Part shown: positions 1,899 to 63,306 of the stretch, one piece after another
Layout of the letters: each line of letters begins with the position of its first letter
Numbering within the stretch: the stretch's first letter is position 1
DNA from: Candidatus Uhrbacteria bacterium
Lineage (GTDB): Bacteria; Patescibacteriota; Patescibacteriia; UBA9934
Length of the DNA stretch: 64,000 bases
Assembly (NCBI GenBank): GCA_943354605.1
Contig: CALRCK010000003.1
Span: forward strand, 14,902 to 78,901
Direction of reading: 5' to 3'
Position numbers and translations under genes: made by a program
Notes under the pieces: generated by a model
What the model was told of the DNA's origin: nothing
Databases searched by the model: none
What the model saw: the letters and a program-made list of their open reading frames with translations, nothing else

Positions 1899-4733
1899 TT
1901 ATTTCCCATGACACTTCTTGAACTTCTTTCCACTTCCACAATGACATGGCTCGTTTGGACGAGGGTCCTTTGATGTGACGCTCTGGATCCCCGCCTGCGC
2001 GGGGATGACGGAGTCTGAAGGAATAGTGGCAGGATTCGATTCCTTCTTTTCTGCAGGCACATCAATCACTGTTGTTCCGCCGGAGGATTGTTGGGAGAGG
2101 AATTGAACGGCGTTGCGCATGAGCTGAGGAGCAGCTTCGAAGACGGCTTTTGCAGCGAGCTGTTGATCAATAATCTTGAAGAGGTTGTACGCCACTTCGC
2201 GGCCGAGTTCGGAGCGCATCGTGTTGTAGAGGCGGTAAGACTCGCGTTTGTATTCCACCAGCGGATCACGTTGAGCGTAGCCTTGAAGGCCGATAGTGCG
2301 GCGCAGGTACGTCATGTCATCAAGATGCTGCATCCAAAGTGTGTCGTTGGCGCGCAGCAAAATATTGCGTTCAAGCGCCATGAGATGTTTTGCATCGCCG
2401 AATTTTTCTACGGCACCGTCGTATGCGCGGCGAATCGCGCCGTTCACAATTTCAATGACGTGGCTACGCTGATGTGCGAGCTTTTCTTTATCAATGGAAA
2501 GCACCGAAAGCTCTTCACGAATCGCGGAAGACTCTGCGTCTTCGAGCTTCACGATTGCGCTCAAGCTCTCCACAATTTCCTGCGGATCCCAATCCGGCTT
2601 GCCCGTCGCCTCATCCTCAACGAAATCTTTTGGCACGTCGGCCTCTGCTTTGCTCGTATGGAAAAACACCACACGCTCAATTTCCTTTTCAATAATGGAA
2701 TGGACGAGCTCATGCGCCTTTGCTTCGCTCTTCATCACTTCTTTACGCTCGTTGTACACGGCGGTGCGATGCTTGTTCAGCACGTCGTCGTATTCCAACA
2801 CGTGCTTGCGGGTATCAAAGTGATGTCCTTCCACGCGTTGCTGAGACTTTTCGAGCGCACGCGTCACCATCTTGCTTTCGATTGGCGTGGAGTCGTCAAT
2901 GCCAAGTTTGTCCATCATCCCCTTCACGCGATCACTCCCGAAGATACGCATCAAATCGTCGTCGAGTGACACAAAGAATTGCGTGCTGCCCGGATCACCC
3001 TGACGGCCAGCGCGTCCGCGAAGCTGATTGTCGATGCGGCGCGATTCGTGGCGCTCGGTGCCGATCACGTGCAACCCGCCAAGTTTCTTCACATCCTCTG
3101 CCATTGCCGCATCCACCGGGTTTCCACCAAGCAAAATGTCCACGCCACGACCAGCCATGTTCGTTGCGAGAGTGACGGCACCCTTCCGACCAGCCTGCGC
3201 GATAATTTCACCTTCACGCTCGTGATTCTTTGCGTTCAACGTGTTGTGAACAATTCCCGCAGCAGTTAAAAACTTCGAAAGCGCCTCATTCTTCTCAATG
3301 GAAACGGTTCCGATGAGAACTGGTTGTCCGATTTCATTTAGGCGCTTCACCTCCTCAACCACCGCCATCCACTTCCCCATTTCATTTTTGTAAATACGGT
3401 CCGGCAAATCTTTACGTTTTGCTTCGTGGTTCGTTGGAATGGTGACGACGTCGAGCTTGTAAATCTTCGAAAACTCCTCCGCCTCTGTGGAAGCCGTTCC
3501 GGTCATGCCGGAAAGCTTTTCGTACATGCGGAAATAGTTTTGGAACGTAATCGTTGCGAGCGTCTTACTTTCACGCTGAATTTTCACGCCTTCTTTTGCT
3601 TCGATTGCTTGATGCAGACCTTCCGAATACCGGCGACCCTCCATGATGCGGCCAGTGAATTCGTCGACGATCACCACGTCGCCGCCACGAACCACGTAAT
3701 CGCGATCAATCTTAAACAACGAATGCGCCTTCAACGCTTGTTCCGCATGATGCACCATGGCAAGGCCTTCCTCGTACAAATTTTTCACGTTCAGCAAACG
3801 CTCCAACTTCTGCAAACCATTTTCGGTAAACGTGGAGACGCGCATCTTTTCGTCAATGTTGAAATCTTCACCCTCAACACAATGTTTGATGACGTCGGCG
3901 AAACGATAATACAAGTCTGCCGATTCCTGTGCCGCAGCAGAAATAATCAGCGGCGTGCGGGCTTCGTCGATGAGAATGGAGTCCACCTCGTCAACAATCG
4001 CGTAGTGTAATCCGCGTTGCACCACATCCTCAGCACGGCTCGCCATGTTGTCGCGCAAGTAATCAAAACCAAACTCGTTGTTTGTTCCATATGTAATGTC
4101 TGCAGCGTACGCTTCCGATCGCGACACTGGACGAAGCGAATCCGATGCAACGTGGAATCCCGCAACCGTCTCAGCACCTTCTGCTGGAGCTTCGACCTTA
4201 AAGTCTGCGTCGTACACGTAGCCACTTTCGTGCTGAATGCATCCAACGGTTAACCCAAGCGATGCAAACACGCGGCCCATCCATACAGAGTCGCGCTTTG
4301 CCAAGTAGTCGTTCACTGTTACCAAGTGCACGCCCTTTCCGGTGAGCGCGTTCAAATACGTTGGCGCGGTTGCGGTGAGTGTCTTTCCTTCACCCGTGCG
4401 CATTTCTGCGATCGAACCGCGATGCAACGTGAGTCCGCCCATCATCTGTACATCAAAATGACGCTGCCCCAGCACACGCTTGCTCGCTTCACGAACAACA
4501 GCAAACGCCTCATGCGCCATGGAATCGAGCGATTCACCGTTTGCGAGCCGCTCGCGGAACGCTTGTGTTTTCGCCTGTAACTCGTCGGCAGAAAGCGTTT
4601 TGAGGCCATCTTCAAAGGCGGCGATTTTCTCTGCATCTTTCCTGAGATTCTTCACTATTTTTGCGTTAGGATCACCGAAAATCGTGGAAAGGGAGAAGGC
4701 CATAGATGGCCAAATTATGCCTGATCTTCGCAA
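1899..4733 (-). CDS. secA: preprotein translocase ATPase SecA
   Basis: 944 aa. DEAD-like motor motifs (GEGKT, DEVDSILIDEARTPLIIS), SecA preprotein cross-linking and wing/scaffold regions, C-terminal zinc finger CHCGSGKKFKKCHGK. Contains an in-frame palindromic repeat insertion at 1983..2009. Confidence 0.97.
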   Translation of the reverse strand: MRRSGIIWPSMAFSLSTIFGDPNAKIVKNLRKDAEKIAAFEDGLKTLSADELQAKTQAFRERLANGESLDSMAHEAFAVVREASKRVLGQRHFDVQMMGGLTLHRGSIAEMRTGEGKTLTATAPTYLNALTGKGVHLVTVNDYLAKRDSVWMGRVFASLGLTVGCIQHESGYVYDADFKVEAPAEGAETVAGFHVASDSLRPVSRSEAYAADITYGTNNEFGFDYLRDNMASRAEDVVQRGLHYAIVDEVDSILIDEARTPLIISAAAQESADLYYRFADVIKHCVEGEDFNIDEKMRVSTFTENGLQKLERLLNVKNLYEEGLAMVHHAEQALKAHSLFKIDRDYVVRGGDVVIVDEFTGRIMEGRRYSEGLHQAIEAKEGVKIQRESKTLATITFQNYFRMYEKLSGMTGTASTEAEEFSKIYKLDVVTIPTNHEAKRKDLPDRIYKNEMGKWMAVVEEVKRLNEIGQPVLIGTVSIEKNEALSKFLTAAGIVHNTLNAKNHEREGEIIAQAGRKGAVTLATNMAGRGVDILLGGNPVDAAMAEDVKKLGGLHVIGTERHESRRIDNQLRGRAGRQGDPGSTQFFVSLDDDLMRIFGSDRVKGMMDKLGIDDSTPIESKMVTRALEKSQQRVEGHHFDTRKHVLEYDDVLNKHRTAVYNERKEVMKSEAKAHELVHSIIEKEIERVVFFHTSKAEADVPKDFVEDEATGKPDWDPQEIVESLSAIVKLEDAESSAIREELSVLSIDKEKLAHQRSHVIEIVNGAIRRAYDGAVEKFGDAKHLMALERNILLRANDTLWMQHLDDMTYLRRTIGLQGYAQRDPLVEYKRESYRLYNTMRSELGREVAYNLFKIIDQQLAAKAVFEAAPQLMRNAVQFLSQQSSGGTTVIDVPAEKKESNPATIPSDSVIPAQAGIQSVTSKDPRPNEPCHCGSGKKFKKCHGK
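1983..2009. repeat. family-1 palindromic element (GGATCCCCGCCTGCGCGGGGATGAC) inserted in frame in secA (encodes VIPAQAGIQ)
   Basis: 8-bp stem ATCCCCGC/GCGGGGAT around a 4-nt centre; same element at 17447, 43260, 56382, 56422, 62755. Confidence 0.8.
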
Positions 4734-4750: not shown

Positions 4751-4769
4751 TGTTGACGAAAAGTCAAAA
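4751..4769 (+). promoter_or_regulatory. palindromic operator/promoter motif TGTTGACGAAAAGTCAAAA (copy 1)
   Basis: TTGAC-N5-GTCAA perfect inverted repeat containing a -35-like TTGACG; identical 19-mer recurs at 5324..5342 upstream of the next gene. Confidence 0.4.
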
Positions 4770-4771: not shown

Positions 4772-5197
4772 TTGCTAACCTTAGCGCGCCATTCAATGGG
4801 GGCACTCTTGGACACTCTTCTCGAAATGCTTCGTCGTCTCTTCCTCGGCTGTGACATTGAAGTCAGTCAATACGATGGAAAATCTCCGGTCCCGATCGTC
4901 ACGGGCAAGGGGCCCATCGAGGAGATCGGCCCCGGACCCAACCAAACCATCGTCGTGACGACGAAGTGGTTCGGGGAAATGAATCTCAAACAGGGCTCAC
5001 GGGAATACGTGGCTCGCGAGCCCGTGCCGATCGTGATCAAGATGGTGGAGAACATTCAGCCTGACGGCAGCGGAAGATTGATTATTCGCGGCACCGTCAA
5101 TGGAGGAGTGGTCATCATCGTCTTCTTCTCGAAGGCACGGGGGAACATGGATCCTGCAAAGGTCCGTGGAATCGACCCGAAGTTCCTCCGGCACTGA
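4772..5197 (+). CDS. hypothetical protein (cassette 1 of a twin-cassette pair)
   Basis: 141-aa ORF starting at TTG 4772; an in-frame ATG at 4796 (MGALLDTLL...) is an alternative start. No recognisable domain. Followed by hairpin terminator. Confidence 0.35.
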   Translation: MLTLARHSMGALLDTLLEMLRRLFLGCDIEVSQYDGKSPVPIVTGKGPIEEIGPGPNQTIVVTTKWFGEMNLKQGSREYVAREPVPIVIKMVENIQPDGSGRLIIRGTVNGGVVIIVFFSKARGNMDPAKVRGIDPKFLRH

Positions 5198-5225
5198 AAG
5201 TTCCTCTGGCACCGATCACGAACGC

Positions 5226-5270
5226 ACGCCGCCTCCCCGGAAGGGTGAAGGCGGCGTTGCTTATTTATTT
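5226..5270 (+). terminator. rho-independent terminator (copy 1 of a 39-bp duplicated sequence)
   Basis: ACGCCGCCT CCCCGGAAGGG TGAAGGCGGCGT stem-loop (9-bp outer stem plus inner CCC/GGG around GGAA loop) followed by TTGCTTATTTATTT. Identical 39 bp (5219..5257) recur at 5933..5971. Confidence 0.55.
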
Positions 5271-5323
5271 CACAAAATTCCGAACAACTATATCAATGAC
5301 GTCATATTCTTCTTAAGTAAAAC

Positions 5324-5342
5324 TGTTGACGAAAAGTCAAAA
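5324..5342 (+). promoter_or_regulatory. palindromic operator/promoter motif TGTTGACGAAAAGTCAAAA (copy 2)
   Basis: Exact repeat of 4751..4769; candidate -10 CAATAT 17 bp downstream of TTGACG; GGAGG RBS at 5366 precedes GTG start at 5376. Confidence 0.4.
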
Positions 5343-5375
5343 ATTGAGCAATATTTGTGCGCCACGGAGGGCACA

Positions 5376-5930
5376 GTGTCTACGATTTTTCCAGTCATGC
5401 TCATCGGCCTCAGCATCGTTGCCGTTGGGGAATTCCTGCTTCTCGTCGTCATCAGCGGGCACAAATACCGCGTGGAAAAGGATCGCCTCGCGTTCCTCAG
5501 CAAACTCGTGGCCGTGGTGAACAGTCATCGCGGCATGCGTAACAGCTATGCCGCAGGAGCACGACATACCTTACTGCTGTACATCCGATCACTGTACGGA
5601 ATCGAAAAAGCCGAAGCGCTGAGCGCATACATCAGTTGTATTGCGGCGGGGCACGCGTTCCCATCGGACCTCCCCTTCCTCGAGGACGAGAAGGCCGTCC
5701 GGAGCGTGATCCTCAAGCGCAGCGACGCACTCTGGAAAACGATTGCTGAAACAAGCAGTGTCAGTCAGACGTCGGCAGCGACGGCGGAAATGCTCGCATT
5801 CGCCGTTGGCATCATGCCGCCTTCCGACTTTGGCCGTCGCGAGCTGACCGCACAAGAACACAGCGCACTCTGCAGCCACTTCGGACCGCGCTCCGGCGGA
5901 CCACGCGTGCCACACCCCAACGCCAACTGA
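5376..5930 (+). CDS. hypothetical membrane-anchored protein (cassette 2)
   Basis: Track ORF 5100..5930 reads through the upstream terminator hairpin. Start reassigned to GTG 5376, 5 nt after GGAGG; alternative ATG at 5397. One N-terminal TM helix (MLIGLSIVAVGEFLLLVVI) then a soluble domain with no recognisable family. Confidence 0.4.
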   Translation: MSTIFPVMLIGLSIVAVGEFLLLVVISGHKYRVEKDRLAFLSKLVAVVNSHRGMRNSYAAGARHTLLLYIRSLYGIEKAEALSAYISCIAAGHAFPSDLPFLEDEKAVRSVILKRSDALWKTIAETSSVSQTSAATAEMLAFAVGIMPPSDFGRRELTAQEHSALCSHFGPRSGGPRVPHPNAN

Positions 5931-5939
5931 CGCGAACGC

Positions 5940-5980
5940 ACGCCGCCTCCCCGGAAGGGTGAAGGCGGCGTGGTGCATTT
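5940..5980. terminator. hairpin terminator (copy 2 of the 39-bp duplicated sequence), probably bidirectional
   Basis: Same GC-rich stem-loop as 5226..5257, positioned between the convergent cassette-2 gene (+) and murC (-). Confidence 0.5.
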
Positions 5981-14183: not shown

Positions 14184-16670
14184 TTACCGCGAATCAGCTG
14201 GTGCCGCAACCCGGCGACGTCGGTGCAAAACAATTGTTATTCTGCCATACAACCATCCTCCGTGGCGTTCCTGAATTTGGGCCTCAAGAACAACAGCGAA
14301 AGAATCCTTTCGGAATTCCACTCGTTGGAATGCGATGTTACGAATTTTTCCAGAACCGAATGTGGACCCAATCGACCCCAAGAGTTCCTGTTGAATTGCC
14401 GCATGACGTTCCCAAGAATCTTCGTCGACTTCCCCCTCGTCAACCCACCCATCAATACTGTCCTGAGGAATGCGCTGAGCGGCGCCGAAGAGAACAATAC
14501 TCAGTTTTTCTTGGGCTTCCTGAACAGGGATACTGATTTCTTTTGGCCAGGCCAGCTCCGGAATATCCCAATCGTACACCACCGGAATGTGGGCGTTATC
14601 AATATAAAGGCCCTCCTTTGCTCGCTCAAACGCTCGACGAGTCTCATGCAACCGCTTCTGATGAAATTGCAGCCGTTTTGTTCGTGCGGCACCAGGCTTC
14701 CCCACTGTCCGTGCATGCCGCACAACATCACGAAGTTCTGAATAGGCGTCGCGAGCTTCACGCAGCTCCTGATACTCCTTTCGAAATTGTTTTGGACATG
14801 GATACGGAATATGTTCTGTATATTCATCAAGAATCGATTCGTCAAAAAATTCCGTTCCGCAAGAAAGCATCGATTCCGTTGGCGGTGTAGGCATTGGAGA
14901 ACTTGACGTAGCATCTTGCGATTGCGGGATATTCACAAACGCATGAACAAACGAATCTCCATTTTTTCCATGACGAACATACCCGACAGACATCTGTATT
15001 CCACGAGCACTCGCGACAAGAGAAACATTCGGCTCAAAACCATACCGATTTTGGAGCACCGCTTTCACTGCATCCAGAAAACTCGTTGCAATGCGACGCC
15101 GATCGTCTTCGAAACCACGGGTGCCGTAATATTCACAAAGCACATCGATATCTCGTGAAGAAAACTCTCCAACCACGTCGAGCACATTACGTATCACGTT
15201 GTTCTCCTCAGAATATTCGTCAAGGGTTTCTATGTCGCGACACTCAATATTTGAAACGTAAGGAATGAAACGACCTTCTGGACGCAGTCTGCCATACGCA
15301 CGGCGAGCAGATGCAGCACCGCGGCGAAACGCCTGGCGCAACTCATGAATTTTTTTCGGCGCGTCATCTTCGCTCGTGTCGTCTTCTCCAGTAGACGATT
15401 CATTCGTTCCACGAAGCACGTCGTACATTTGCCCACACTTGGCATACACGTCCTCGTGAAGCGTGAAAAATGTTTGCAGGTCCTCTGCATATTTTTGAGG
15501 AACAACCCGAACGTTCAAAATGTCAACATCCAAAAGTTGCGTTTCGTCTTCCAACAAACTGTCCATGCGTTCATACAATCCACGAATTGCATTGATATGC
15601 ATGCTCATGGATTCCAACGGTACGTCAATCAAGGCGTACACCATGCGATCTTTCAAACGAGGATATTTTTCAATAAACGGGATACACGCAGCGAGCGCTA
15701 ACGAAATCTGAGATACGAGAAGGCGATCCGCGCCACTTTCTGAAGACTTCCCTTCAAAGAGATGTTCGTAAAGCTTCCCCTGCAATGTCGCATTCACGTC
15801 ACGAATTCTTCCTTCACGAAGATATGCAAGAACTTCGTCCTTGATGACTCGGCGACGTTTTTCTTGTTCAAGAATCGCCCTTCGCTCGTGCGCTGGAAGC
15901 CGAAGCATCGACGGACGAGGAGTCTCCATATCCGTCAAACTCACAAGGCCTTCATTAATCCAATGCTGAATTTCGTGAATCATGATTGCGTCGTTTTCAA
16001 CGTTCCCCTGCAACGCTCCACGACGCGTGACCAACGGAACTTGGCGATTCGCGATATTCACCATCTGGGCGCGATGGAATCGGCCACCGCTTCGTTCGTC
16101 TGGCGTTCGTTCGTTGTAAATATCGTTGTACGAATTTTCATCATTCACGGACATGAAAAGAAATCCGTGTACACGCGTCAGCTGGAGATCCTCGGCCCGT
16201 TGTACCTGTGCAAATCGATGAACCATGTCTTTATACAGTTCTTGCCCGAGATTTGCGGCAGACGGCCGAAGCCCCTGTCTTCGAACACTCTTCGTCAGTT
16301 CGTCCATAACGCTCCTTGCGTCTTCTGACTGTTGTCGAAATCGCTCAGCAACGACTCCGCACGCACGCAAAAAGTTCCGGTCCACTGTTCCAGCAGGAAG
16401 ATCAATGGACGACAACATGTCGCTCAAAGAAGGATTTTGCGGTCCAGAACGAAAATACGACTCCACGCGCAATGCCACATCGGCACGCTGAAGCCTACGC
16501 CATACCGCCTCGTCACGCCGACGCTCGGCACGTTTCTCTGGAGTCTCCACCGAGTTGCGAACAAGAAATTTCCCCGTATCAAGCGGAGTTTGCTCACGCG
16601 GCTCACCCTGCGGCTTTGCATCGTGATGCGTTGGCGCACCTTCTGGTATTTTTGGGCCTCCAAATGGCAT
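14184..16670 (-). CDS. large hypothetical protein with HExxH motif (IMIHEIQHW), embedded between uvrB and uvrA
   Basis: 828-aa ORF, highly charged, no TM segment. Starts 9 nt after uvrB stop and ends 23 nt before uvrA start on the same strand. Single zinc-metallopeptidase-like HEIQH motif near residue 232; rest has no recognisable domain. Confidence 0.6.
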
Positions 16671-16679: not shown

Positions 16680-18764
16680 TTATACTTGATGACGTCCTTG
16701 CGCCTTCTTTCGAGGTTTCTTCTTACCCATACCCGTCAACTCTTTACTGAGCATCGCAATCTCGTCTCGGAGAATCGCCGCGGTTTCGAATAAAAGGTTT
16801 GCCGCAGCGTTATCCATCTCAATTTCCTTCTCGCGAATCGCTTCCTCAATCTCCATTGGCGTTGCACTGATTTCGATATCGAGAATCTTCGACGTGTCGG
16901 CATCGAAATTCCGATCAAGTTCCGCACGAATATCCTTAATGGTCTTGATGATGGTCTGCGGTGTGATGTTGTGTACAACGTTGTACGCGATTTGAATGTT
17001 TCGACGGCGTTCGGTTTCCTTCAGCGCCCGGTCGAGCGATCCGGTCATCTTGTCCGCATACAAAACAACTAAACCGTTCACGTTACGCGCAGCGCGACCG
17101 ATCGTTTGGATGAGCGAGGTCTCCGATCGAAGGAACCCTTCCTTATCTGCATCGAGCACGCCAATAAGCGAAACTTCTGGAAGATCGAGGCCCTCACGAA
17201 GAAGGTTTACGCCAACCACAACGTCGTACGCACCGCGACGAAGCTCCGAAAGAATCGTGATTCGATCAAGCGTTTCAACATCGGAATGCAAGTACGCCAC
17301 CTTCATGCCACCTTCCTTGAGGTACGTCGCCAAATCCTCGGCCATTTTCTTTGTGAGTGTCGTCACGAGCGCGCGTTCGCCTTTCGTTACGCGGTCTTTG
17401 ATACGTTCGATGATATCGGCAACTTGGCCGGGATATTCAGACGCCGCTGGATCCCCGCCTTCGCGGGGATGACCAGAAACTGATGAGGCCGTCACTGGCA
17501 ACACCAGCGTCTCAGGATCGACTAATCCCGTTGGACGAATAATCTGCTCAACAATGTTCTGCGACGTTTCTTTTTCAACAACACCCGGCGTTGCCGAAAC
17601 ATAAACGGCTTGACCGATCGTTTCATCGAACTCCTGGTACGTCAGTGGCCGATTATCCTTCGCACTTGGTAGTCGGAAACCGAAATCCACCAACGTCTGC
17701 TTTCGTGCCTGGTCGCCCGCAAACATTCCACCAATCTGCGGAAGCGTGACGTGCGATTCGTCGATAATCGTCAAAAAGTCTTTCGGGAAATACGACAGCA
17801 GCGTGTGCGCCGGTTCACCAATACGTCGGCCGTCGAAATGGCGAGAGTAATTTTCAATGCCGCTGCAGTATCCAACGTTCCGGATCATCTCAATGTCGTA
17901 TCGTGTGCGGCGCATTAAGCGTTCCGATTCTAACAGCTTCCCTTCTTTTTCGAATTCCTTTAATCGATCAGCAAGCTCTGCCTCGATGTCGCGGATGGCG
18001 CGTTCGCGTTCGGTGCTGTCGGACATAAAGTGCTTTGCTGGGAAAAACCATGCGTCTTCGTTCTGCACGATAATCTTTCTCGTCACTTTATTCAACGCAA
18101 AAATTTCACGTACCGCATTGCCCTCGATGACGATGCGGTACACCGTTTCATCGCTTGGCGGCATCACCTCGATAACGTCGCCGTTTGCGCGGAAATGTCC
18201 ACGAGTCAGGTCCGCATTCGTTCGTTCGTATTGCATCGCCACAAGTTGGCGAAGAAACTCTGCGCGGTCGATACGGTCGTTGACGCGCAAATGAAGCACC
18301 TCGCGCTTGTACGCTTCCGGCGAACCCAAACCATAAATACAGCTCACCGATGCGACCACAATGACATCACGACGGGAAAGCAACGATTGCGTTGCTGCGT
18401 GGCGAAGACGATCAATTTCCTCGTTAATCTGTGCGTCCTTTTCAATATACGTATCGGTTCGCGGCATGTATGCCTCTGGCTGGTAGTAGTCGTAATACGA
18501 AACGAAATACGACACCGCATTCTCCGGGAAAAACTCCCGGAATTCGGAGCACAGCTGTGCGGCAAGTGTTTTGTTGTGCGCAATCACCAAGGTCGGCTTC
18601 TGCACGTTCTGAATAACGTTTGCCATCGTAAACGTCTTTCCCGAACCCGTAACCCCAAGCAACGTCTGCCGGTGCAGGCCGTCGTTGATGCCATCGGTGA
18701 GATCTGAGATGGCTTTCGGCTGATCACCGGCTGGCTGGTATTTGGATACGAGGTTGAACGACAT
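16680..18764 (-). CDS. uvrB: excinuclease ABC subunit B
   Basis: Start reassigned to MSFNLVSKYQPAGDQPKAI (canonical UvrB N-terminus). Helicase motifs (GVTGSGKT, DESH), beta-hairpin, C-terminal UVR domain. Contains an in-frame palindromic element at 17447..17473 encoding SGHPREGGDP. Confidence 0.95.
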   Translation of the reverse strand: MSFNLVSKYQPAGDQPKAISDLTDGINDGLHRQTLLGVTGSGKTFTMANVIQNVQKPTLVIAHNKTLAAQLCSEFREFFPENAVSYFVSYYDYYQPEAYMPRTDTYIEKDAQINEEIDRLRHAATQSLLSRRDVIVVASVSCIYGLGSPEAYKREVLHLRVNDRIDRAEFLRQLVAMQYERTNADLTRGHFRANGDVIEVMPPSDETVYRIVIEGNAVREIFALNKVTRKIIVQNEDAWFFPAKHFMSDSTERERAIRDIEAELADRLKEFEKEGKLLESERLMRRTRYDIEMIRNVGYCSGIENYSRHFDGRRIGEPAHTLLSYFPKDFLTIIDESHVTLPQIGGMFAGDQARKQTLVDFGFRLPSAKDNRPLTYQEFDETIGQAVYVSATPGVVEKETSQNIVEQIIRPTGLVDPETLVLPVTASSVSGHPREGGDPAASEYPGQVADIIERIKDRVTKGERALVTTLTKKMAEDLATYLKEGGMKVAYLHSDVETLDRITILSELRRGAYDVVVGVNLLREGLDLPEVSLIGVLDADKEGFLRSETSLIQTIGRAARNVNGLVVLYADKMTGSLDRALKETERRRNIQIAYNVVHNITPQTIIKTIKDIRAELDRNFDADTSKILDIEISATPMEIEEAIREKEIEMDNAAANLLFETAAILRDEIAMLSKELTGMGKKKPRKKAQGRHQV
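17447..17473. repeat. family-1 palindromic element (CTGGATCCCCGCCTTCGCGGGGATGAC) inserted in frame in uvrB
   Basis: Same stem ATCCCCGC/GCGGGGAT as the other copies; read here in a different frame from secA and GT1. Confidence 0.8.
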
Positions 18765-18866
18765 AATAGCAATTTCACCCTCGAGTGTTTCTCTAGGGGT
18801 ACGTGTCATCGGCTGTTCTTCTACTATACCAAACAAAATACGAACGGACAATCAATATCCACAGAA

Positions 18867-23183: not shown

Positions 23184-23257
23184 AGGGGCGTCGTATAATG
23201 GTAGTACAACGGTCTCCAAAACCGTTAGCGTGGGTTCGATTCCCCCCGCCCCTGCCA
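23184..23257 (+). tRNA. tRNA-Trp (anticodon CCA)
   Basis: Cloverleaf: acceptor AGGGGCG/CGCCCCT, anticodon arm ACGGT-CTCCAAA-ACCGT, T-loop TTCGATT, discriminator G, encoded CCA. One U-C mismatch in the T stem. Confidence 0.85.
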
Positions 23258-24751
23258 CGAGAGACGGTCATCGCAAGGTGACCGTTTTTCGATTGCAAAA
23301 TACGGTTGTTTCAGCGAAAAAATCGGCTCTCCGTCCGTAAGTTTCGAGTTCGATAGTAAAAACTGTGCCAATTCCCGTTTTTCGTCAGGAGTGGCTTCTT
23401 TCGCCAGTTTCTCGGCGTTTTCTGCGAGTTCCAAAATCCTACAGCCGAATTGGTAATAACTGATGTCAGCGCGGTTGTGTTTCGCCATGCGGACTTCAAG
23501 ACTTTCGAGCTGCTTGGTGTAGTCGGCAAACTTCGCATCGTAAAAGCTCTCGGTGATTTTCTTATCGAGGCGGTCTTCGTACAATGCGTCGATACGCTTC
23601 TTGAGGCGCGTCTGGTCAGCGACAAGGCTCTCGAAAGCCTTATCCTCCCCCTCGCGCTTCTGCGACAGCGACTGCTTGAGTGCGGCGGTTACAAACGCAA
23701 CGCCTGCATCGCTGATTTTCAGGATGTTCGTCAGCTTGTCGAAACGTTCGTCGATTGTTTCTTCTTTGACCCACGGCTGGTCGCAGTTCGTGTTGTACTT
23801 GGTGCAATGGTAGTAGTTGTAACGACCCTTCGCCTTCTCTGCGGTAATCGACCGAGCGCATACGCCGCAAGTAAACATTCCCTTGTACGCAAACGGCATG
23901 ACGTTATGCTCTTTGCGCATATTCAAATTGCGCCCGCTGATGACGTCTTGCACTTTTGCCCACAGCTCCGAGGCAATAAGAGGCTCGTATGAGCCTTGTA
24001 TCATCTTGCCGTTCCACTCAAACCTCCCAACGTAGAACGTATTGACGAGGCAACGCTGCACCGTGGAAACATACAGCTTACCGCTCTTGATGACGGGTGG
24101 GAGGTTGAGCGTCAGCCCTTCGGCTTCGAGCTTGGTAATAAGTGACTTCATCGAGTAAATGCCCGAGGCGTAGTACTCAAACATTTTGACGATGAGTTGG
24201 CGGTTCGCAGGGTCAGGAATGACGATGTTGTGTTTGGGGTTGAGCGGGTCTTTCGCGTTGAGGTAGCCAAGGGGAGCTTGGCGCGGATATTCTCCGTGCG
24301 AGATTTTGATGTCAAAACCCTTTTTTACTTCCTCCTTGAGGTTGTCGATAAAACCCTTCGCCAATACAGTCTTGAGGCCGTGCATGAGTTTGTCCGACGC
24401 GCGGCTGTCTTTTCCGATAGAGCCGCCCTCTTTCACCAGCCAAACGGTCACACCGAAATTGTCGGTCAGTTCTTCGATAGCGACGTAGTCCGTAAAGTTG
24501 CGATGGAGGCGGTCGGTCTTTTCGACGAGAATGTGCTTGATGTCCTTTGCTTTGACGTAGGCCAGCATCGCGGCGAACTCCTTGCGTCGGCTGTCCTTGG
24601 CCGTCTCTGCCTCCTCAAACTCTTTTGCGACCTCAAAGCCGTTACGACGAGCAAAGTCGTAGAGAGCAACGCGCTGTGCCTCGGGGGAGAAGCCCTGCTC
24701 GGCCTGCTCCTTGCTCGACACACGGACGTACATGACGGCTTTCTTGAGCAT
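23225..24751 (-). CDS. large serine recombinase (integrase)
   Basis: Start at MLKKAVMYVRVSSKEQ (resolvase/invertase catalytic serine motif). Recombinase domain, zinc ribbon CGVCARS...YYHC, long coiled coil. The last 11 codons (...GESNPR) overlap the 3' 33 nt of tRNA-Trp, as in tRNA-inserted integrative elements. Confidence 0.85.
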   Translation of the reverse strand: MLKKAVMYVRVSSKEQAEQGFSPEAQRVALYDFARRNGFEVAKEFEEAETAKDSRRKEFAAMLAYVKAKDIKHILVEKTDRLHRNFTDYVAIEELTDNFGVTVWLVKEGGSIGKDSRASDKLMHGLKTVLAKGFIDNLKEEVKKGFDIKISHGEYPRQAPLGYLNAKDPLNPKHNIVIPDPANRQLIVKMFEYYASGIYSMKSLITKLEAEGLTLNLPPVIKSGKLYVSTVQRCLVNTFYVGRFEWNGKMIQGSYEPLIASELWAKVQDVISGRNLNMRKEHNVMPFAYKGMFTCGVCARSITAEKAKGRYNYYHCTKYNTNCDQPWVKEETIDERFDKLTNILKISDAGVAFVTAALKQSLSQKREGEDKAFESLVADQTRLKKRIDALYEDRLDKKITESFYDAKFADYTKQLESLEVRMAKHNRADISYYQFGCRILELAENAEKLAKEATPDEKRELAQFLLSNSKLTDGEPIFSLKQPYFAIEKRSPCDDRLSWQGRGESNPR

Positions 24752-24753
24752 AT

Positions 24754-25377
24754 CTATAGATGAGAGACGGCAACCATCATTGAAATCGTCAGTACAGCTA
24801 TTCCGAACCCGAAGGTGAGAAAGCAAGCGTACTGCAAGAATGCCTTTACGCTTACGGCAAATGCATTTTTTCCGTCGAGCTCATCGCACAACTTTTTGTC
24901 ATTGGCCAAGTATTCAGCTTCTTGCGCGGCGTATGCTTCCTTGCTACCGCCTCCCGTGAGCACGACAGTAAGACCAGTACCGAGATACTGGATTTTTGCT
25001 TGGCGTAAACGCTGACGCTTCTTGAGCCATTCCGTAGCGGCAGTCCAGTAAATATGCCGAGCATTGAACCAACGAACAAATAGTCCGCTAATAAACGCGG
25101 TGAGCATCAATGACCAGGCTACAAACAATGTGTATTTCAAGGGATGACCAAGAAAAATTGCATCGAATGGCCTGCTCGTTGCGTTTGCTACTGAGCCAAC
25201 AAAGGTAAGGCTCAATGAAATAATCGCGGCGGAATACAAGGTAATCTTTTCCGAGACTTCCACGAGGTCTTTATTTACATTTATTTGCGTCAGGTCGAAA
25301 TGCGTTGCGGCCTTGCTCAATGCATCGCTACTTTGCGACATTTCCGCGTGAACAGCAGTCGGGTTGAAGTCCGTCAT
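24754..25377 (-). CDS. hypothetical membrane protein (element cargo)
   Basis: 207 aa with 3-4 hydrophobic helices; stop abuts the integrase start. Confidence 0.4.
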   Translation of the reverse strand: MTDFNPTAVHAEMSQSSDALSKAATHFDLTQINVNKDLVEVSEKITLYSAAIISLSLTFVGSVANATSRPFDAIFLGHPLKYTLFVAWSLMLTAFISGLFVRWFNARHIYWTAATEWLKKRQRLRQAKIQYLGTGLTVVLTGGGSKEAYAAQEAEYLANDKKLCDELDGKNAFAVSVKAFLQYACFLTFGFGIAVLTISMMVAVSHL

Positions 25378-25391
25378 AGATTGCTTTCATT

Positions 25392-26573
25392 TTATATTAT
25401 CTCCTCATCAATAGCGACCCCGAGTATCGCCTCGAGCTTCTTGGGGAGGACAGGACAGAAGGCTGCGAGTTTGCGCTGTAAGTACGGCACAATGCCGACA
25501 ACGTCCTTCTTTGCCTCGGCCTTCGCGAGGATGTTTTCGACCGCTTTTTTGTACCGTGTCACGGTTGCGGGTGAAGCTTCGCGTTTCAGCTCCTCAATAG
25601 CAGTCTTGAGGCCGTGGTCACGGACACGATGCGCGAGGTAGTAAAGAATAGCGCGGTCGCGGAAGTCGTCCGCATACTCCCCGATGAGGCGTTGTAGTTC
25701 GGTATTCTTGAGGTCGCTCAAACGAACAAGGCGGTTGAAGTCTTTGACGTACACGTTCTCGAACGTTCGTACGAGTACCTTCTTTGCTATGTCAGCCTTC
25801 GCTGCTTCTTGCAGGGTGTACCCCTTCTTTTTTATGGCGGCGGAAAATTGCCGCAAGGTCGCGTCTACGGTCTGTCTCTTTTGTAACGATAGCTCGATGC
25901 GGAGTGCGCCCTTTGTCCATTTGCCCGCCTTGTACTGCCGCGCAATTTCTTGTTCGAGCTGCGTCTTGCCATTGGTCGCGATTTCATCGAACTTGTCGTA
26001 CAAAACAAAACCTTGCGAGGAGTTGTAGTACTTCAAGTAAAAACCGTCCTTCCCGTCGTGATAATCGCGTCGGTTGAAGTCCGAAGACTGCTTCATGTCA
26101 TACGGCATCAGCGCACGGAGCATTTGTGCCGTCGTCCCGAAGCTCGGACTGATTTGCAGGATTTTCGAGTAGTCTATGCGGTACACGATAGCTCCCAACA
26201 CATCCTCGGGCTTTACGCCGACTTTGATTTCTTTGAGTGCATCGACGAGCTTCTTGGCGACGAGGGGGAGCAAACGTTCGTCCATATCGAAGATGCTTGC
26301 CCCGAACAGGAGTTTGGGGAGTGATACTTGCACGACGAGCTGACGCTCCGAAGGCACCATGCCGCGTTTGGTGCGCCGTGAACGTTCGGTAATATGTACC
26401 TGTGGGAAATACTTCCCCTCGGCCTTGCAACGCTGTGGGTAGTCCGTGTAGCGCGTGGTGAAGCGTCCGAAGACGCCGTACTTGCCTTTGAGCTCCTGAT
26501 GCTGCGCCTTGGTGAAGAACTCGTCGGAGTACGTCACGAAGTTCGTAATGTGAATGGTGACGCTGTCTATCAT
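25392..26573 (-). CDS. putative replication initiation protein (Rep_trans-like)
   Basis: 393 aa; the FVLYDKFDEI (YDK) motif and overall size fit rolling-circle Rep_trans initiators of phage and integrative elements. Assignment from motif memory only. Confidence 0.4.
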   Translation of the reverse strand: MIDSVTIHITNFVTYSDEFFTKAQHQELKGKYGVFGRFTTRYTDYPQRCKAEGKYFPQVHITERSRRTKRGMVPSERQLVVQVSLPKLLFGASIFDMDERLLPLVAKKLVDALKEIKVGVKPEDVLGAIVYRIDYSKILQISPSFGTTAQMLRALMPYDMKQSSDFNRRDYHDGKDGFYLKYYNSSQGFVLYDKFDEIATNGKTQLEQEIARQYKAGKWTKGALRIELSLQKRQTVDATLRQFSAAIKKKGYTLQEAAKADIAKKVLVRTFENVYVKDFNRLVRLSDLKNTELQRLIGEYADDFRDRAILYYLAHRVRDHGLKTAIEELKREASPATVTRYKKAVENILAKAEAKKDVVGIVPYLQRKLAAFCPVLPKKLEAILGVAIDEEII

Positions 26574-26740
26574 ACGAGTTGGGGCTTGGCTTTTATGCGG
26601 GTGTCGATGCGGAGCAATACCTCAAAGGCTCCGAGCAGATTTCTTGCTGCGTCGGGTATTTCTTCAGGGGCGAGGCCAAGCTCGTCCACGAAGTAGCGTT
26701 GCGCCAATTCTTCGAGGTTGGGTTCATCTTCGGGCAACAT
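26570..26740 (-). CDS. small hypothetical protein translationally coupled to the Rep-like gene
   Basis: 56-codon ORF (MLPEDEPNLEELAQRYFVDELGL...) whose TGA overlaps the Rep ATG (ATGA). Absent from the track because it is under 60 aa. Confidence 0.3.
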   Translation of the reverse strand: MLPEDEPNLEELAQRYFVDELGLAPEEIPDAARNLLGAFEVLLRIDTRIKAKPQLV

Positions 26741-26803
26741 AAAAGCTCCGAGCCGTAATATCAGCCGTGACAGGCTGTATAGACGCGGAGCTGTGGGTTG
26801 ATT

Positions 26804-26832
26804 ATTGAACGCACGACAAGTTCGTTCTATAA
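26804..26832 (+). promoter_or_regulatory. near-consensus sigma-70 type promoter TTGAAC-17-TATAAT
   Basis: TTGAAC at 26804..26809, 17-bp spacer, TATAAT at 26827..26832. Points rightward into a hairpin plus T-tract at about 26877..26912, suggesting a very short transcript or an antisense RNA against the ImmA gene 3' end. Confidence 0.4.
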
Positions 26833-27539: not shown

Positions 27540-27545
27540 ACGTTT

Positions 27546-28409: not shown

Positions 28410-28410
28410 A

Positions 28411-43259: not shown

Positions 43260-43286
43260 GTCATCCCCGCGAAGGCGGGGATCCAG
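43260..43286. repeat. family-1 palindromic element (GTCATCCCCGCGAAGGCGGGGATCCAG), intergenic
   Basis: Opposite orientation relative to the secA, uvrB and GT1 copies. Confidence 0.8.
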
Positions 43287-56381: not shown

Positions 56382-56448
56382 GTCATCCCCGCGTAGGCGG
56401 GGATCCATCATTCCGAACGGTCTGGATCCCCGCCTACGCGGGGATGAC
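56382..56448. repeat. two inverted family-1 palindromic elements forming a composite hairpin
   Basis: GTCATCCCCGCGTAGGCGGGGATCC (56382..56406), a 15-nt spacer, then CTGGATCCCCGCCTACGCGGGGATGAC (56422..56448); intergenic between tpiA and the M16 peptidase gene. Confidence 0.8.
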
Positions 56449-62166: not shown

Positions 62167-63306
62167 TTACCGAATAGCGACGGCGCGTCGCAACGCTTTC
62201 CAAGTTTCTGCCGCGGTAGCTTCCCACGAAAATTTCTGTGCCTGTATAAATCCACGGGAACGATATTCTTCTCGCTTTTCGGTATCAACCATCAACACGA
62301 GCGCCGCCGACAGCGCAGCCACATCGTTCGGCGACACCAAAACCGCCGCTTGTCCGCACACCTCGCGCATCACGGCAATATTCGACGCAATCACCGGCGC
62401 GCCATGTTCCATCGCCTCAAGAACAGGAATACCGAATCCTTCAGCCACCGACGGGAACGCAAAGCACATTGCATGCGCAAGAAGCTTCGATGCATCGTGG
62501 TCGGAAATGTATCCGGGGAGGCGAACCGAATCTGCAATTTTCTCTTCGGCAATTGCGCGACGGATGTCTGCCTCGCCATAGCCAAACGATCCCGCAAGCA
62601 CTAACACATACGGGCTCCCCGCGCCGTACTTGCGTTTCAACGCCGCAAATGCACGGATGAGGAGAACCGTGTTTTTCTTTTTCTCCAAACGGCTGATCGA
62701 AAGAATGTATTGTCCGGAAGTGATCTGTAATTTACGCAAGAGGTCTGAAGCCTGCTGGATCCCCGCCTGCGCGGGGATGACGGAAAGGGTAGGCGCGAGC
62801 GGCGTGACAACAATCCGATCGGATGCAACGTGATAGTGCGATTCAAGGTCGGCTTTCGTGGCGTTCGATGGCGTCAGTAAAACTTTGGCTCGCCGAATGG
62901 CATTCTGCACTGCAAGCTCTTGCCGCTGACGCGAGGCCGGATCGTAGACTTGAGGATTCATCGCGAATGCAACGTCGTGGATGGTGGTGACGACCGGAAT
63001 CGATTTCGGTGCAAGCAAAGAAATTTCATGTGCAGGAACAAATACCACGCTTGGCCGATGCATCATAAGTTCGAACCCAAGCCGAAAGTGTGTCCAGCCT
63101 TTTGGAAGAAAAAACGGGAGAACTTTCCAGGACCAACCTTGCGGGAGATCGATCCCAGCCGGAATCGAACGAACGTACAACAGGACGTTCTCATCAGCTT
63201 CGAGCGGCATTTTCATCATCGCACTCAATAAAAAATACACGTAACGCTCAACGCCAGTCGGATTCAATCGTGTCAGCGCATTCGCATCAATGCCGTATGT
63301 TTTCAT
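62167..63306 (-). CDS. glycosyltransferase family 1 (GT4-type, GT-B fold)
   Basis: 379 aa; C-terminal nucleotide-sugar-binding motif (FAFPSVAEGFGIPVLEAMEHGAPVIASN). Contains an in-frame family-1 palindromic element at 62755..62781 encoding VIPAQAGIQ in the interdomain linker. Confidence 0.8.
   Translation of the reverse strand: MKTYGIDANALTRLNPTGVERYVYFLLSAMMKMPLEADENVLLYVRSIPAGIDLPQGWSWKVLPFFLPKGWTHFRLGFELMMHRPSVVFVPAHEISLLAPKSIPVVTTIHDVAFAMNPQVYDPASRQRQELAVQNAIRRAKVLLTPSNATKADLESHYHVASDRIVVTPLAPTLSVIPAQAGIQQASDLLRKLQITSGQYILSISRLEKKKNTVLLIRAFAALKRKYGAGSPYVLVLAGSFGYGEADIRRAIAEEKIADSVRLPGYISDHDASKLLAHAMCFAFPSVAEGFGIPVLEAMEHGAPVIASNIAVMREVCGQAAVLVSPNDVAALSAALVLMVDTEKREEYRSRGFIQAQKFSWEATAAETWKALRRAVAIR
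62755..62781. repeat. family-1 palindromic element (CTGGATCCCCGCCTGCGCGGGGATGAC) inserted in frame in the GT1 gene
   Basis: Identical 27-mer to the secA copy; translated as VIPAQAGIQ in both host genes. Confidence 0.8.

What the first reader, a model, noticed from the sequence alone, without database searches (positions are those of the whole stretch)
1983..2009. RPE-like 27-bp palindromic element inserted in frame in three conserved genes (secA, uvrB, GT1) and present at two further intergenic loci (one as an inverted pair)
The consensus CTGGATCCCCGC-N4-GCGGGGATGAC has an 8-bp stem ATCCCCGC/GCGGGGAT and a variable 4-nt centre. Six copies occur at five loci: 1983..2009, 17447..17473, 43260..43286, 56382..56406 with 56422..56448, and 62755..62781. 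Three copies lie inside ORFs without breaking the frame. In secA it encodes VIPAQAGIQ in the linker before the C-terminal zinc finger. In the GT1 gene the identical 27-mer again encodes VIPAQAGIQ. In uvrB it is read in another frame (SGHPREGGDP), inside an extra segment that canonical UvrB lacks in this linker. In-frame colonisation of essential genes by a palindromic element is the hallmark of Rickettsia palindromic elements and is rare elsewhere.
Basis: seen in the sequence. Interest (0 to 1): 0.75.

Follow-up and report, generated by a model that had tools for sequence, protein, structure and literature searches.

The report
Hairpin repeat inserted in-frame in genes
A 27-base hairpin-forming repeat of an already described, very widespread bacterial family (called CGTC-1 REP, dRS3/NTS or RPE-6) sits six times in this Patescibacteria genome piece, three times as nine extra codons in flexible linkers of SecA, UvrB and a glycosyltransferase. 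This is a new host lineage for a known phenomenon.

Summary
Six copies of (N)GTC-ATCCCCGC-GNAG-GCGGGGAT-CCAG lie at the stated places, against 0 expected by chance. Three are in frame in secA, uvrB and a GT4 glycosyltransferase.

The element fits the published CGTC-1 class of repetitive extragenic palindromes (Di Nocera 2013). That class includes Neisseria dRS3 and Rickettsia conorii RPE-6, and its intragenic copies are already known to encode VIPAKAGI, including in a uvrB homolog. It also fits the NTS/SRM motif that small GIY-YIG "Ssn" nucleases bind and cut as single-stranded DNA (Nat Commun 2025).

The exact 26-mer occurs in many phyla. It flanks Ssn-like genes in 13 loci that I fetched. 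No Ssn or RAYT gene was found in 83.5 kb of this contig.

Close orthologs have empty sites. The insertions fall in disordered or interdomain linkers.

New here:
- The host is a Uhrbacteria-like Patescibacterium.
- The same secA and uvrB sites carry different element families in sister lineages.
- Intragenic copies are far better conserved than the genes around them.

Verdict: a new member of a known kind, of moderate interest.

The parts
1983..2009 (-). Element copy 1. It reads cGTCATCCCCGCGCAGGCGGGGATCCAG on the - strand and encodes VIPAQAGIQ, residues 899-907 of the 934-aa SecA.
   Evidence: By phmmer against solved SecA structures it lies in the unaligned linker (residues 849-912) just before the SEC-C zinc motif.
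1899..4703 (-). secA host gene (934 aa as called on the source contig).
   Evidence: Pfam hits SecA_DEAD, P-loop_SecA, SecA_SW and SEC-C. The gene call is in L131.
17447..17473 (-). Element copy 2 (gGTCATCCCCGCGAAGGCGGGGATCCAG). It is read in another frame as (G)HPREGGDP(A) inside UvrB.
   Evidence: The site is empty in ortholog L123/P0123, at 82% gene nucleotide identity. In the AlphaFold model, residues 427-442 have pLDDT below 50 and form a loop between strand 418-422 and helix 447-460. The alignment to solved UvrB has a 20-residue gap here.
16680..18809 (-). uvrB host gene. The 709-aa product equals cluster P0121.
   Evidence: Pfam hits UvrB_inter, UvrB, Helicase_C and UVR. P0121 is 100% identical and 709 aa long.
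43260..43286 (+). Element copy 3, intergenic. It lies between two co-directional minus-strand genes, downstream of the stop at 43421 and upstream of the terminator hairpin at 43197-43226.
56382..56448 (.). Inverted pair. Copy 4 is at 56382-56408 (+, tail CCAT). A 13-nt spacer follows. Copy 5 is at 56422-56448 (-). The GTC heads point outward and the tails inward. The pair fills the 120-bp gap between the M16 peptidase and tpiA genes.
   Evidence: 26-nt arms, 100% complementary. Folding energy is -35.7 kcal/mol. The relative L130 has only 8 bp between the same two genes. Ssn-like genes elsewhere are flanked in the same heads-out arrangement.
62755..62781 (-). Element copy 6. Its 27-mer is identical to copy 1 and encodes VIPAQAGIQ, residues 176-184 of the GT4 glycosyltransferase.
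   Evidence: In the AlphaFold model it lies in the linker between the last strand of the N-domain (165-167) and helix 179-192, where pLDDT is about 85 against about 97 in neighbouring regions.
62167..63306 (-). GT4/GT1-family glycosyltransferase host gene (379 aa).
   Evidence: Pfam hits Glycos_transf_1 and Glyco_transf_4. The exact protein is found on the 171-kb source contig.

Best explanation
The six copies belong to an oriented, hairpin-forming repeat family already described under several names: CGTC-1 REP, Neisseria dRS3/NTS, Ssn-related motif (SRM), and R. conorii RPE-6.

The unit has four parts: an unpaired head (N)GTC, an 8-bp stem that starts with AT, a 4-nt loop, and an unpaired tail CCAG.

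Shown:
- The copies are dispersed through the window.
- They are absent from homologous sites in close relatives.
- They occur singly and as one heads-out inverted pair.
- Intragenic copies lie only in linkers that tolerate extra residues.
- The unit is 27 nt, which is 9 codons. Five of its six reading frames are open. The sixth frame contains TGA, and one copy just outside the window uses that TGA to end a gene.

Inferred:
- Copies spread, and are renewed, through single-stranded DNA hairpins acted on in trans by a structure-specific enzyme. The best candidate is a small GIY-YIG Ssn nuclease, because the identical 26-mer flanks such genes in other genomes and in viral contigs. A RAYT-type HUH transposase is the alternative.
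- In a compact Patescibacteria genome with little intergenic space, many insertions hit genes. Selection then keeps only those in disordered or interdomain linkers.
- The encoded peptides are passengers, not functional motifs.
For: Identity with the known family:
- The architecture matches the published CGTC-1 definition: tag CGTC or variants, 8-bp stem beginning AT, 4-nt loop, tail CCA.
- Four of six copies fit the published SRM search pattern completely. All six fit it without the 5' H position. Markov simulations gave 0.3 matches.
- The element differs from the Neisseria NTS consensus only by one compensated stem pair.
- All six copies have the GTC upstream of the palindrome and the C immediately after it. 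The Ssn study found these most important for cleavage and for binding, respectively.

Insertion status:
- Empty sites are seen in uvrB, in the M16-tpiA spacer and in the GT gene.
- The characteristic peptides occur in only 5 of 120 SecA, 3 of 120 UvrB and 10 of 120 GT cluster representatives.

Tolerant positions.

Use of the stop-containing frame: L001 6436-6462 gives ...GSPPTRG*.

Spread beyond this lineage: many phyla carry the exact 26-mer.

Association with Ssn-like genes:
- GIY-YIG ORFs of about 95 aa (Pfam PF01541) are flanked by this exact element, or have it immediately beside them.
- This holds in 3 of 120 genome loci and 10 of 49 IMG/VR loci.

Prior description of intragenic copies encoding VIPAKAGI, including in a uvrB homolog.
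Against:
- No Y1/RAYT or GIY-YIG Pfam hit appeared among the window's ORFs that I scanned (about 38, all of 117 aa or more) or in the precomputed Pfam lists for the genes called in L001 and L131. Most ORFs under about 117 aa in window 10,100-52,100 were not Pfam-scanned. There the absence of an Ssn-like ORF rests on my own regex, tblastn and HMM scans. So a partner enzyme in this organism is unproven.
- Di Nocera et al. state that CGTC REPs lack a dedicated transposase. The Ssn paper demonstrates cleavage and an effect on transformation, not transposition.
- The insertions are not clean 27-bp events and show no target-site duplication.
- Only 2 of 6 copies have the full CGTC tag. The others read GGTC or AGTC.
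Confidence: 0.75

Rival explanations
1. The copies are REP/REPIN elements duplicated by a RAYT (REP-associated tyrosine transposase of the IS200/IS605 type), as proposed for the Neisseria dRS3-type REPINs.
For: - Bertels and Rainey link the Neisseria repeat ATTCCCGCGCAGGCGGGAATC, arranged as inverted doublets, to the RAYT NMAA_0235.
- The window has one inverted doublet that folds into a long hairpin.
Against: - The element carries a GTC/CGTC head, not the GTAG tag typical of RAYT-associated REPs.
- Di Nocera et al. found no RAYT gene flanked by CGTC units.
- No Y1 transposase Pfam hit was seen in the window or its flanks.
- Thirteen fetched loci show the exact element flanking, or lying right beside, GIY-YIG genes instead.
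Confidence: 0.12
2. The copies are kept for a host function at the nucleic-acid level, rather than as selfish repeats. Candidate functions are transcript 3'-end stabilisation or termination, or marking sites where single-stranded DNA is cut to modulate recombination.
For: - The two intergenic loci lie directly downstream of stop codons of co-directional genes, the usual REP position.
- Intragenic copies are much better conserved than their genes. In secA, 27 of 27 bases match between the window and L133, against 78% gene identity (P about 0.001-0.003). In the GT gene, 26 of 27 match against 68%. In uvrB, 25 of 27 match against 75%.
- In Neisseria, NTS together with SsnA lowers the integration of transforming DNA.
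Against: - Other orthologous copies decay freely: VISAQAGIQ, VIPVETGTH, YPREGGDS, and an 18-nt internal deletion in L130.
- Many close relatives lack the element altogether.
- A stable hairpin inside secA or uvrB mRNA has no obvious benefit.
- The high conservation can also come from recent re-insertion or copy correction.
Confidence: 0.2
3. VIPAQAGIQ is a conserved protein motif, and the DNA palindrome is a by-product of it. Alternatively, the copies are sequencing or assembly artefacts.
For: The same nine residues occur in two unrelated proteins.
Against: - The same DNA is read in a different frame in UvrB.
- It is non-coding at two loci.
- It supplies a stop codon in a fourth gene.
- Only the closest relatives carry it.
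- Independent assemblies from other samples contain identical copies.
Confidence: 0.01

Closest known systems
CGTC-1 family of CGTC-tagged REPs (Di Nocera, De Gregorio & Rocco 2013, BMC Genomics 14:522). It includes Neisseria dRS3 and R. conorii RPE-6.
   Same: - The architecture is the same: GTC-type head, 8-bp stem beginning AT, 4-nt loop, CCA tail.
- Copies occur singly and as inverted dimers.
- Most sit just 3' of ORFs.
- Intragenic in-frame copies encode VIPAKAGI-type peptides, including in DNA-repair genes such as a uvrB homolog.
   Different: - The stem here is ATCCCCGC rather than ATTCCCGC, a compensated pair change.
- Only 2 of 6 copies have the full CGTC tag.
- The host is a Patescibacterium. 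That paper reported CGTC repeats in five phyla. I did not see which five, so I cannot say Patescibacteria was absent.
- The share of copies overlapping genes is high: 4 of 7 on 83.5 kb.
NTS / Ssn-related motif (SRM), the ssDNA target of the single-domain GIY-YIG nuclease SsnA (Nat Commun 2025;16:2388, PMC11893778).
   Same: - The element fits the SRM search pattern.
- It has the conserved GTC before the palindrome and the C after it.
- The identical 26-mer flanks, or lies right beside, Ssn-like GIY-YIG genes in 13 fetched loci, many in the published heads-out NTS-ssn-NTS layout.
   Different: - No ssn gene was found in the part of this genome that could be read.
- The paper's main text has no occurrence of 'intragenic' or 'Patescibacteria'.
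- Cleavage of this variant has not been tested.
Rickettsia palindromic elements (RPE-1 and relatives).
   Same: They insert in frame into protein-coding genes, including essential ones, at positions tolerated by the protein.
   Different: - From my own knowledge, classical RPE-1 is about 100-150 bp and is restricted to Rickettsia.
- The present unit is 27 bp and corresponds only to the short RPE-6 class.
REPIN-RAYT systems (GTAG-tagged REP doublets).
   Same: - They are short palindromic units, with inverted doublets that form long hairpins.
- Copy populations stay close to a master sequence.
   Different: - The head motif differs: GTC here, GTAG there.
- REPINs are almost exclusively extragenic.
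- No RAYT gene was seen here.

Membership tests
CGTC-1 REP (Di Nocera 2013) | Unpaired terminal tag CGTC (TGTC and CCTC are accepted variants) | tested here: inconclusive
   GTC is invariant in all six copies. The preceding base is C in 2 copies, G in 2 and A in 2. GGTC and AGTC are not among the variants named in the paper.
CGTC-1 REP (Di Nocera 2013) | Stem of 8 bp with A and T in the first and second positions, and a loop of 4 nt | tested here: met
   The stem is ATCCCCGC/GCGGGGAT and the loop is GNAG in all six copies.
CGTC-1 REP (Di Nocera 2013) | Short unpaired tail fitting CCA | tested here: met
   The tail is CCAG in five copies and CCAT in one.
CGTC-1 REP (Di Nocera 2013) | Dispersed multi-copy family with single units and inverted dimers | tested here: met
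   There are seven copies on 83.5 kb, including one inverted homodimer. The genome-wide count is not obtainable with these tools.
NTS / SRM (Ssn target) | Matches the pattern HGTCWYN(0-2)YYVSBRHN(0-5)WNVSBRGN(0-2)RNCYNB | tested here: met
   Four of six copies match fully. The other two fail only at the first position (G instead of H). Markov simulations of the window gave 0.3 matches.
NTS / SRM (Ssn target) | An ssn gene (single-domain GIY-YIG, about 95 aa) in the same genome, typically flanked by the motif | tested here: inconclusive
   None was found in the window, in the 19.5 kb of contig beyond it, or in relatives. Only about half of one 171-kb contig could be read.
NTS / SRM (Ssn target) | The same motif flanks ssn genes in other genomes | tested here: met
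   Thirteen loci (3 genome, 10 IMG/VR) have a GIY-YIG ORF flanked by, or with at one end, GTCATCCCCGCGNAGGCGGGGATC or its ATTCCCGC variant.
NTS / SRM (Ssn target) | Strand-specific binding and cleavage by an Ssn nuclease as ssDNA | not testable with these tools
   This is a biochemical assay. Only the presence of the critical GTC and of the C after the palindrome can be read from sequence.
Rickettsia palindromic elements (RPE-1 type) | Element of about 100-150 bp that forms a long hairpin and inserts in frame in genes | tested here: not met
   The unit is 27 bp with no conserved flanks. The in-frame insertion behaviour is shared. The RPE-1 length figure is from my own knowledge.
REPIN-RAYT | GTAG-tagged REP doublets, a cognate RAYT gene, and extragenic location | tested here: not met
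   The head is GTC, not GTAG. No Y1 transposase was found in the window or flanks. Four of seven copies overlap coding sequence.
MITE | Terminal inverted repeats plus a target-site duplication | tested here: not met
   The inverted pair has 26-nt inverted arms. However, no direct repeat flanks it or any single copy.

The most novel reading that the evidence does not exclude
GTCAT-headed hairpin elements may home to, and replace each other at, fixed sites inside essential genes.

- At one codon position of the secA tail, sister lineages carry three different GTCAT-headed families, although their SecA cores are 95-96% identical.
- The uvrB linker likewise carries five or more different inserts.
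- Head-plus-tail 'footprints' lie just upstream of intact copies.
- Intact intragenic copies stay 96-100% identical while the host genes have diverged to 68-78%.

Together these points suggest a head-directed, ssDNA-based copy-replacement mechanism, homing-like and possibly catalysed by Ssn. The alternative is random insertion followed by neutral decay.
Probability: 0.25. Interest if true: 0.7.

Novelty: new member of a known kind. Interest (0 to 1): 0.4.

Why it matters
- It extends a cross-phylum hairpin repeat family to the reduced genomes of Patescibacteria. There, 4 of 7 copies overlap genes, including the essential secA.
- It links three literatures that use different names for one element: CGTC REPs, dRS3/NTS-Ssn and RPE-6.
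- Di Nocera et al. explicitly left open how CGTC-type REPs move.
- The secA and uvrB hotspots, with element turnover among very close relatives and copies conserved beyond the gene background, give concrete, datable natural events for testing whether Ssn-type nucleases or other enzymes drive insertion, excision or copy correction.
- For annotation, it explains recurrent peptides such as VIPAQAGIQ and HPREGGDP, and stop codons donated by the repeat.

Tried and rejected
- **Longer element:** I looked for conserved sequence around the 27-mer and found none.
- **Other families in the window:** a search for other multi-copy palindromes found only two inverted-pair elements of a second GTCAT-headed family. 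The rest were terminators or chance repeats.
- **Ssn gene:** I searched the window, the two contig extensions and all Patescibacteria loci by regex, tblastn and two home-made HMMs. There were no hits.
- **Transposases:** Pfam scans of about 38 window ORFs, all of 117 aa or more, showed no Y1/RAYT, IS110 or GIY-YIG domain.
- **Rfam:** the gathering-threshold search returned only four tRNAs.
- **Single versus multiple insertion:** neighbour-joining trees were informative for secA. For uvrB and the GT gene the carriers are scattered among empty relatives, and I could not separate recurrent gain, loss and recombination. Bootstrap values were computed but not displayed, so I relied on the identity matrix.
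- **Missing DNA:** the sequence of P0008, sister of a carrier but with a different insert, was not available.
- **Target-site duplication:** none is present.
- **GT site pre-existing GTCAT:** I considered that the GT site already held GTCAT (ancestral Pro-Val-Ile).
- **Literature:** no paper in the library reported these repeats in Patescibacteria.
Full report
**1. The observation**

The pattern CTGGATCCCCGC-N4-GCGGGGATGAC, with up to 3 mismatches allowed, hits six places in the window:
- 1983-2009
- 17447-17473
- 43260-43286
- 56382-56408 (one mismatch)
- 56422-56448
- 62755-62781

No hit occurred in 100 dinucleotide-preserving shuffles. The core 8+4+8 palindrome gives the same six sites plus one unrelated weak match.

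Aligning the copies with 60-nt flanks shows no conservation outside the 27 bases. Read from the other strand, the unit is (N)GTC | ATCCCCGC | GNAG | GCGGGGAT | CCAG. Only the loop's second base and the last tail base vary.

As ssDNA a single unit folds at -9.7 kcal/mol (z about -4 to -5). The inverted pair at 56382-56448 folds as one 26-bp hairpin at -35.7 kcal/mol (z -11).

A 13-mer census finds no other family with more than two copies in the window.

**2. Context and host**

Pfam confirms the three host genes:
- secA, 1899-4703, minus strand
- uvrB, 16680-18809, minus strand
- a GT4/GT1 glycosyltransferase, 62167-63306, minus strand

The translations read ...PSDS-VIPAQAGIQ-SVTSKDPRPNEPCHCGSG... 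in SecA...LPVTASSVSG-HPREGGDP-AASEYPGQVADI... in UvrB, and ...PLAPTLS-VIPAQAGIQ-QASDLLRK... in the GT protein.

The window is part of a 171-kb metagenomic contig, ENA ERZ27280315 k141_168332. Its closest SecA and UvrB relatives are labelled Patescibacteria group or Candidatus Uhrbacteria.

An independent Logan assembly of another run carries identical secA and GT copies. An assembly artefact is therefore excluded.

The 19.5 kb of the contig readable beyond the window adds one more copy, at L001 6436-6462. In that copy the stop-containing frame supplies the last seven residues and the TGA of a GT2 gene (...LRSGSPPTRG*). The total is seven copies on 83.5 kb, four of them overlapping coding sequence.

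**3. Are the intragenic copies insertions?**

*UvrB.* Many orthologs at 84-94% identity read ...LPVTQTADFPGQV... with nothing in between. At the DNA level the window has 42 extra bases relative to L123: the 27-mer plus about 15 nt on its left. Two relatives carry slightly decayed versions at the same site: L125 has GTTATCCCCGCGCAGGCGGGGATCCAG and L126 has GTTATCCTCGCGAAGGCGGGGATTCAG.

*GT protein.* Most relatives read ...APTTPKSTADASELL..., five residues shorter. L129 shows this empty state in DNA. L130 keeps GTCATCC|TCCAG, which is the head and tail with the hairpin core deleted.

*M16 peptidase-tpiA spacer.* It is 120 bp here and is filled by the inverted pair. It is 8 bp in L130.

*SecA.* The peptide is present in 5 of 120 cluster representatives, all among the closest relatives. 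The corresponding counts are 3 of 120 for UvrB and 10 of 120 for the GT protein.

This is not met. Orthologs that have the residues also have the palindrome.

**4. Where in the proteins**

*SecA.* Against solved SecA structures, residues 849-912 do not align. The insert (899-907) lies five residues before the SEC-C zinc motif.

*UvrB.* Against solved UvrB there is a 20-residue gap between ...V(K/L)PV and (K)GQ(I/V)DDL. The AlphaFold2 model gives pLDDT below 50 for residues 427-442, a coil between strand 418-422 and helix 447-460.

*GT4.* In the model (mean pLDDT 93.6) the insert (176-184) spans the coil after the last strand of the N-domain and the first turn of helix 179-192. Local pLDDT is about 85, against about 97 nearby.

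All three inserts are therefore in linkers.

**5. What the element is**

Two papers describe this element under other names.

*Di Nocera et al. 2013 (PMC3733652)* define CGTC-tagged REPs. Family CGTC-1 has:
- a CGTC-type unpaired tag
- an 8-bp stem beginning AT
- a 4-nt loop
- a CCA tail

It corresponds to Neisseria dRS3 and R. conorii RPE-6. Their supplementary table lists intragenic CGTC-1 copies encoding VIPAKAGI, SFPRKRES and DSRFRRND. Hosts include an R. conorii uvrB homolog, a Micavibrio DNA polymerase I and a Chlorobium membrane protein. They note that intragenic REPs are frequent in replication and repair genes. They also state that CGTC REPs have no dedicated transposase.

*A 2025 Nature Communications paper (PMC11893778)* redefines the oriented form as NTS, CGTCATTCCCGCGMAVGCGGGAATCYRG. 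It shows the following:
- The 94-aa single-domain GIY-YIG protein SsnA binds NTS only as ssDNA and on one strand only. It cuts a few bases upstream.
- The three bases before the palindrome matter most for cleavage. The C right after it matters most for binding.
- ssn genes are typically flanked by the motif (NTS-ssn-NTS), like an insertion sequence.

The window's element differs from NTS only by one compensated stem pair (T-A to C-G). Four of six copies fit the paper's degenerate SRM pattern completely, and all six fit it without the first position. Simulated sequence gives 0.3 matches.

**6. Distribution and the GIY-YIG link, tested here**

The taxa named in the record titles include:
- Alpha-, Beta-, Gamma- and 'Delta'-proteobacteria
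- Planctomycetes
- Gemmatimonadaceae
- Omnitrophota, Cloacimonadota and Hydrogenedentota
- Anaerolineales
- Verrucomicrobiia
- Rubrivirga
- a Melainabacteria-type MAG
- two other Patescibacteria MAGs

In the two Patescibacteria loci, the ATCCCCGC and ATTCCCGC variants form mixed inverted pairs.

In L078 (Rubrivirga) and L028 the element flanks a GIY-YIG ORF of about 95 aa, heads outward. L114 has it on one side only.

In IMG/VR the element occurs in 49 stretches. Ten of them have such an ORF flanked by the element or immediately next to it. Pfam assigns these ORFs to PF01541, GIY-YIG.

The heads-out arrangement is the same as in the window's inverted pair. That pair looks like an NTS-ssn-NTS unit with a 13-nt spacer in place of the gene. 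This last point is an inference.

In the Patescibacteria material no Ssn-like ORF was detected. That material is the window, 19.5 kb of adjacent contig, and loci from relatives, 271 kb in all with some redundancy. No Y1/RAYT, IS110 or GIY-YIG domain appears among the scanned or precomputed gene products.

Whether this organism has a partner enzyme therefore remains open.

**7. Dynamics: the part that goes beyond the literature I read**

(a) *The secA site is shared by different families.* The left junction is the same in the window and L127. In L128 it lies 24 nt closer to the conserved upstream sequence. The sequences are:
- window and L133: GTCATCCCCGCGCAGGCGGGGATCCAG
- L127 (P0004): GTCATGCTGAGCGAAAGCGAAGCATCTC...
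- L128 (P0007): GTCATTGCGAGTGTAGCAAAGCAATCC...

P0004 is 95-96% identical to four carriers of the first type over 866 columns. Every lineage outside this tight group is at most 89.7% identical to its members. P0006, a carrier, and P0008, which has a different, non-GTCAT insert, are 95.7% identical to each other. The occupant of the site has therefore been exchanged recently.

(b) *The uvrB linker is a hotspot.* In other relatives it holds at least five other insert types, for example PPYEGGVGGG, SPSPFAKASVGQGNGGG and FSRHCEEGGPDEAIY.

(c) *Head-plus-tail remnants lie at or just upstream of intact copies.* Examples are GTCATCC|TCCAG in the L130 GT gene, ACTATTCCTTCAG before the window's secA copy, SVIPS(G/D)S before the copies in P0002 and P0005, and GTTTTTCCCTCA in L183.

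(d) *Intact intragenic copies are much more conserved than their genes.*
- secA, window versus L133: 27 of 27 bases match, against 78% gene identity. Only 53% of codons are identical at residues with the same amino acid. The chance of nine identical codons at a pre-specified site is about 0.003.
- GT, window versus L183: 26 of 27 match against 68%. My binomial estimate is about 4e-4.
- uvrB, window versus L125: 25 of 27 match against 75%.

Other orthologous copies do decay: VISAQAGIQ, VIPVETGTH and YPREGGDS.

These facts fit recurrent, site-preferring renewal of copies, or copy correction. They fit selection on the DNA less well. The data cannot separate these options from recombination between related strains. 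The scattered distribution of carriers in the uvrB and GT trees is ambiguous in the same way.

**8. Mechanism, with status of each step**

Shown:
- The element is an oriented hairpin repeat.
- It has been inserted relative to close orthologs.
- It is tolerated in linkers.
- Because the unit is 9 codons long, with five open frames and one stop frame, copies can be read through or used as a gene end.
- It belongs by sequence to CGTC-1/SRM.
- The identical motif flanks Ssn-type genes elsewhere, including on contigs classified as viral. That offers a route for cross-phylum spread.

Inferred:
- Movement or renewal goes through ssDNA hairpins handled by an Ssn-type nuclease (first choice) or a RAYT (second choice).
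- The compactness of the genome explains the high intragenic fraction.
- The encoded peptides have no function of their own.

**9. Verdict**

I file it as a new member of a known kind. The host lineage is new, there are three clean examples in conserved genes, and the turnover and conservation pattern is unexplained and worth a genome-wide and population-level follow-up.

Noticed in passing
window 38234-38305 and 58323-58403: There are two inverted-pair elements of a second GTCAT-headed family (GTCATGCTGAGC...GAGAT...GCTCAGAATGAC). They are 72 and 81 bp long and both are intergenic. The first folds at -23.3 kcal/mol. A single unit of the same family occupies the secA tail site in relative L127 (peptide VMLSESEAS).
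   Followed up: partly
L001 6436-6462 (same contig, about 2.9 kb beyond the window's right end): This is a seventh copy of the element. Its only closed frame supplies the last seven residues and the TGA stop of a GT2 glycosyltransferase gene (...LRSGSPPTRG*).
   Followed up: yes
window 23184-29700: A probable integrated element lies next to a tRNA gene (23184-23254). It comprises:
- a large serine recombinase (23225-24826)
- a Phage_CRI-type rolling-circle replication protein (25392-26573)
- an M78/IrrE peptidase (26901-27539)
- a Bro-N protein (27546-28556)

GC skew changes sign at 24-28 kb. No copy of the palindromic element lies at its borders.
   Followed up: partly
UvrB and SecA orthologs (P0122, P0124, P0126, P0131, P0146; P0008, P0012-P0016, P0019): The same two linker positions carry several other short, repeat-like inserts in related lineages. 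Examples are PPYEGGVGGG, RHCEEGGPDEAI, LSHPEGTEGSP and PLLKGESEGV. Both sites are therefore insertion hotspots for several repeat families.
   Followed up: partly
window 5219-5257 and 5933-5971; also 4751-4769 and 5324-5342: A 39-bp exact direct repeat (CGAACGCACGCCGCCTCCCCGGAAGGGTGAAGGCGGCGT), which contains its own hairpin, occurs twice 714 bp apart around ORF 5100-5930 (no Pfam hit). A 19-bp repeat TGTTGACGAAAAGTCAAAA also occurs twice upstream of secA.
   Followed up: no
window 14184-16670 (-): An 828-aa ORF with no significant Pfam domain lies between uvrB and uvrA. The relatives L123 and L125 have a 142-aa PemK-type toxin gene in that position.
   Followed up: no
window 54791-54830: A perfect 40-bp A/T-flanked palindrome (AAATAAAATACAGGAGCCGATCGGCTCCTGTATTTTATTT) lies between convergent genes. 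It is probably a bidirectional terminator.
   Followed up: no
L010 5846-7310 (Rhodopseudomonas pentothenatexigens): Six copies of the exact 26-mer are spaced about 310 bp apart in one orientation. They form a tandem array of a longer repeat unit that contains the element.
   Followed up: no
L005 6951-7037 and L105 3811-3880 (other Patescibacteria MAGs): These are inverted pairs in which one arm has the ATTCCCGC stem (the Neisseria NTS type) and the other has the ATCCCCGC stem. Both variants therefore coexist in one genome as heterodimers.
   Followed up: no
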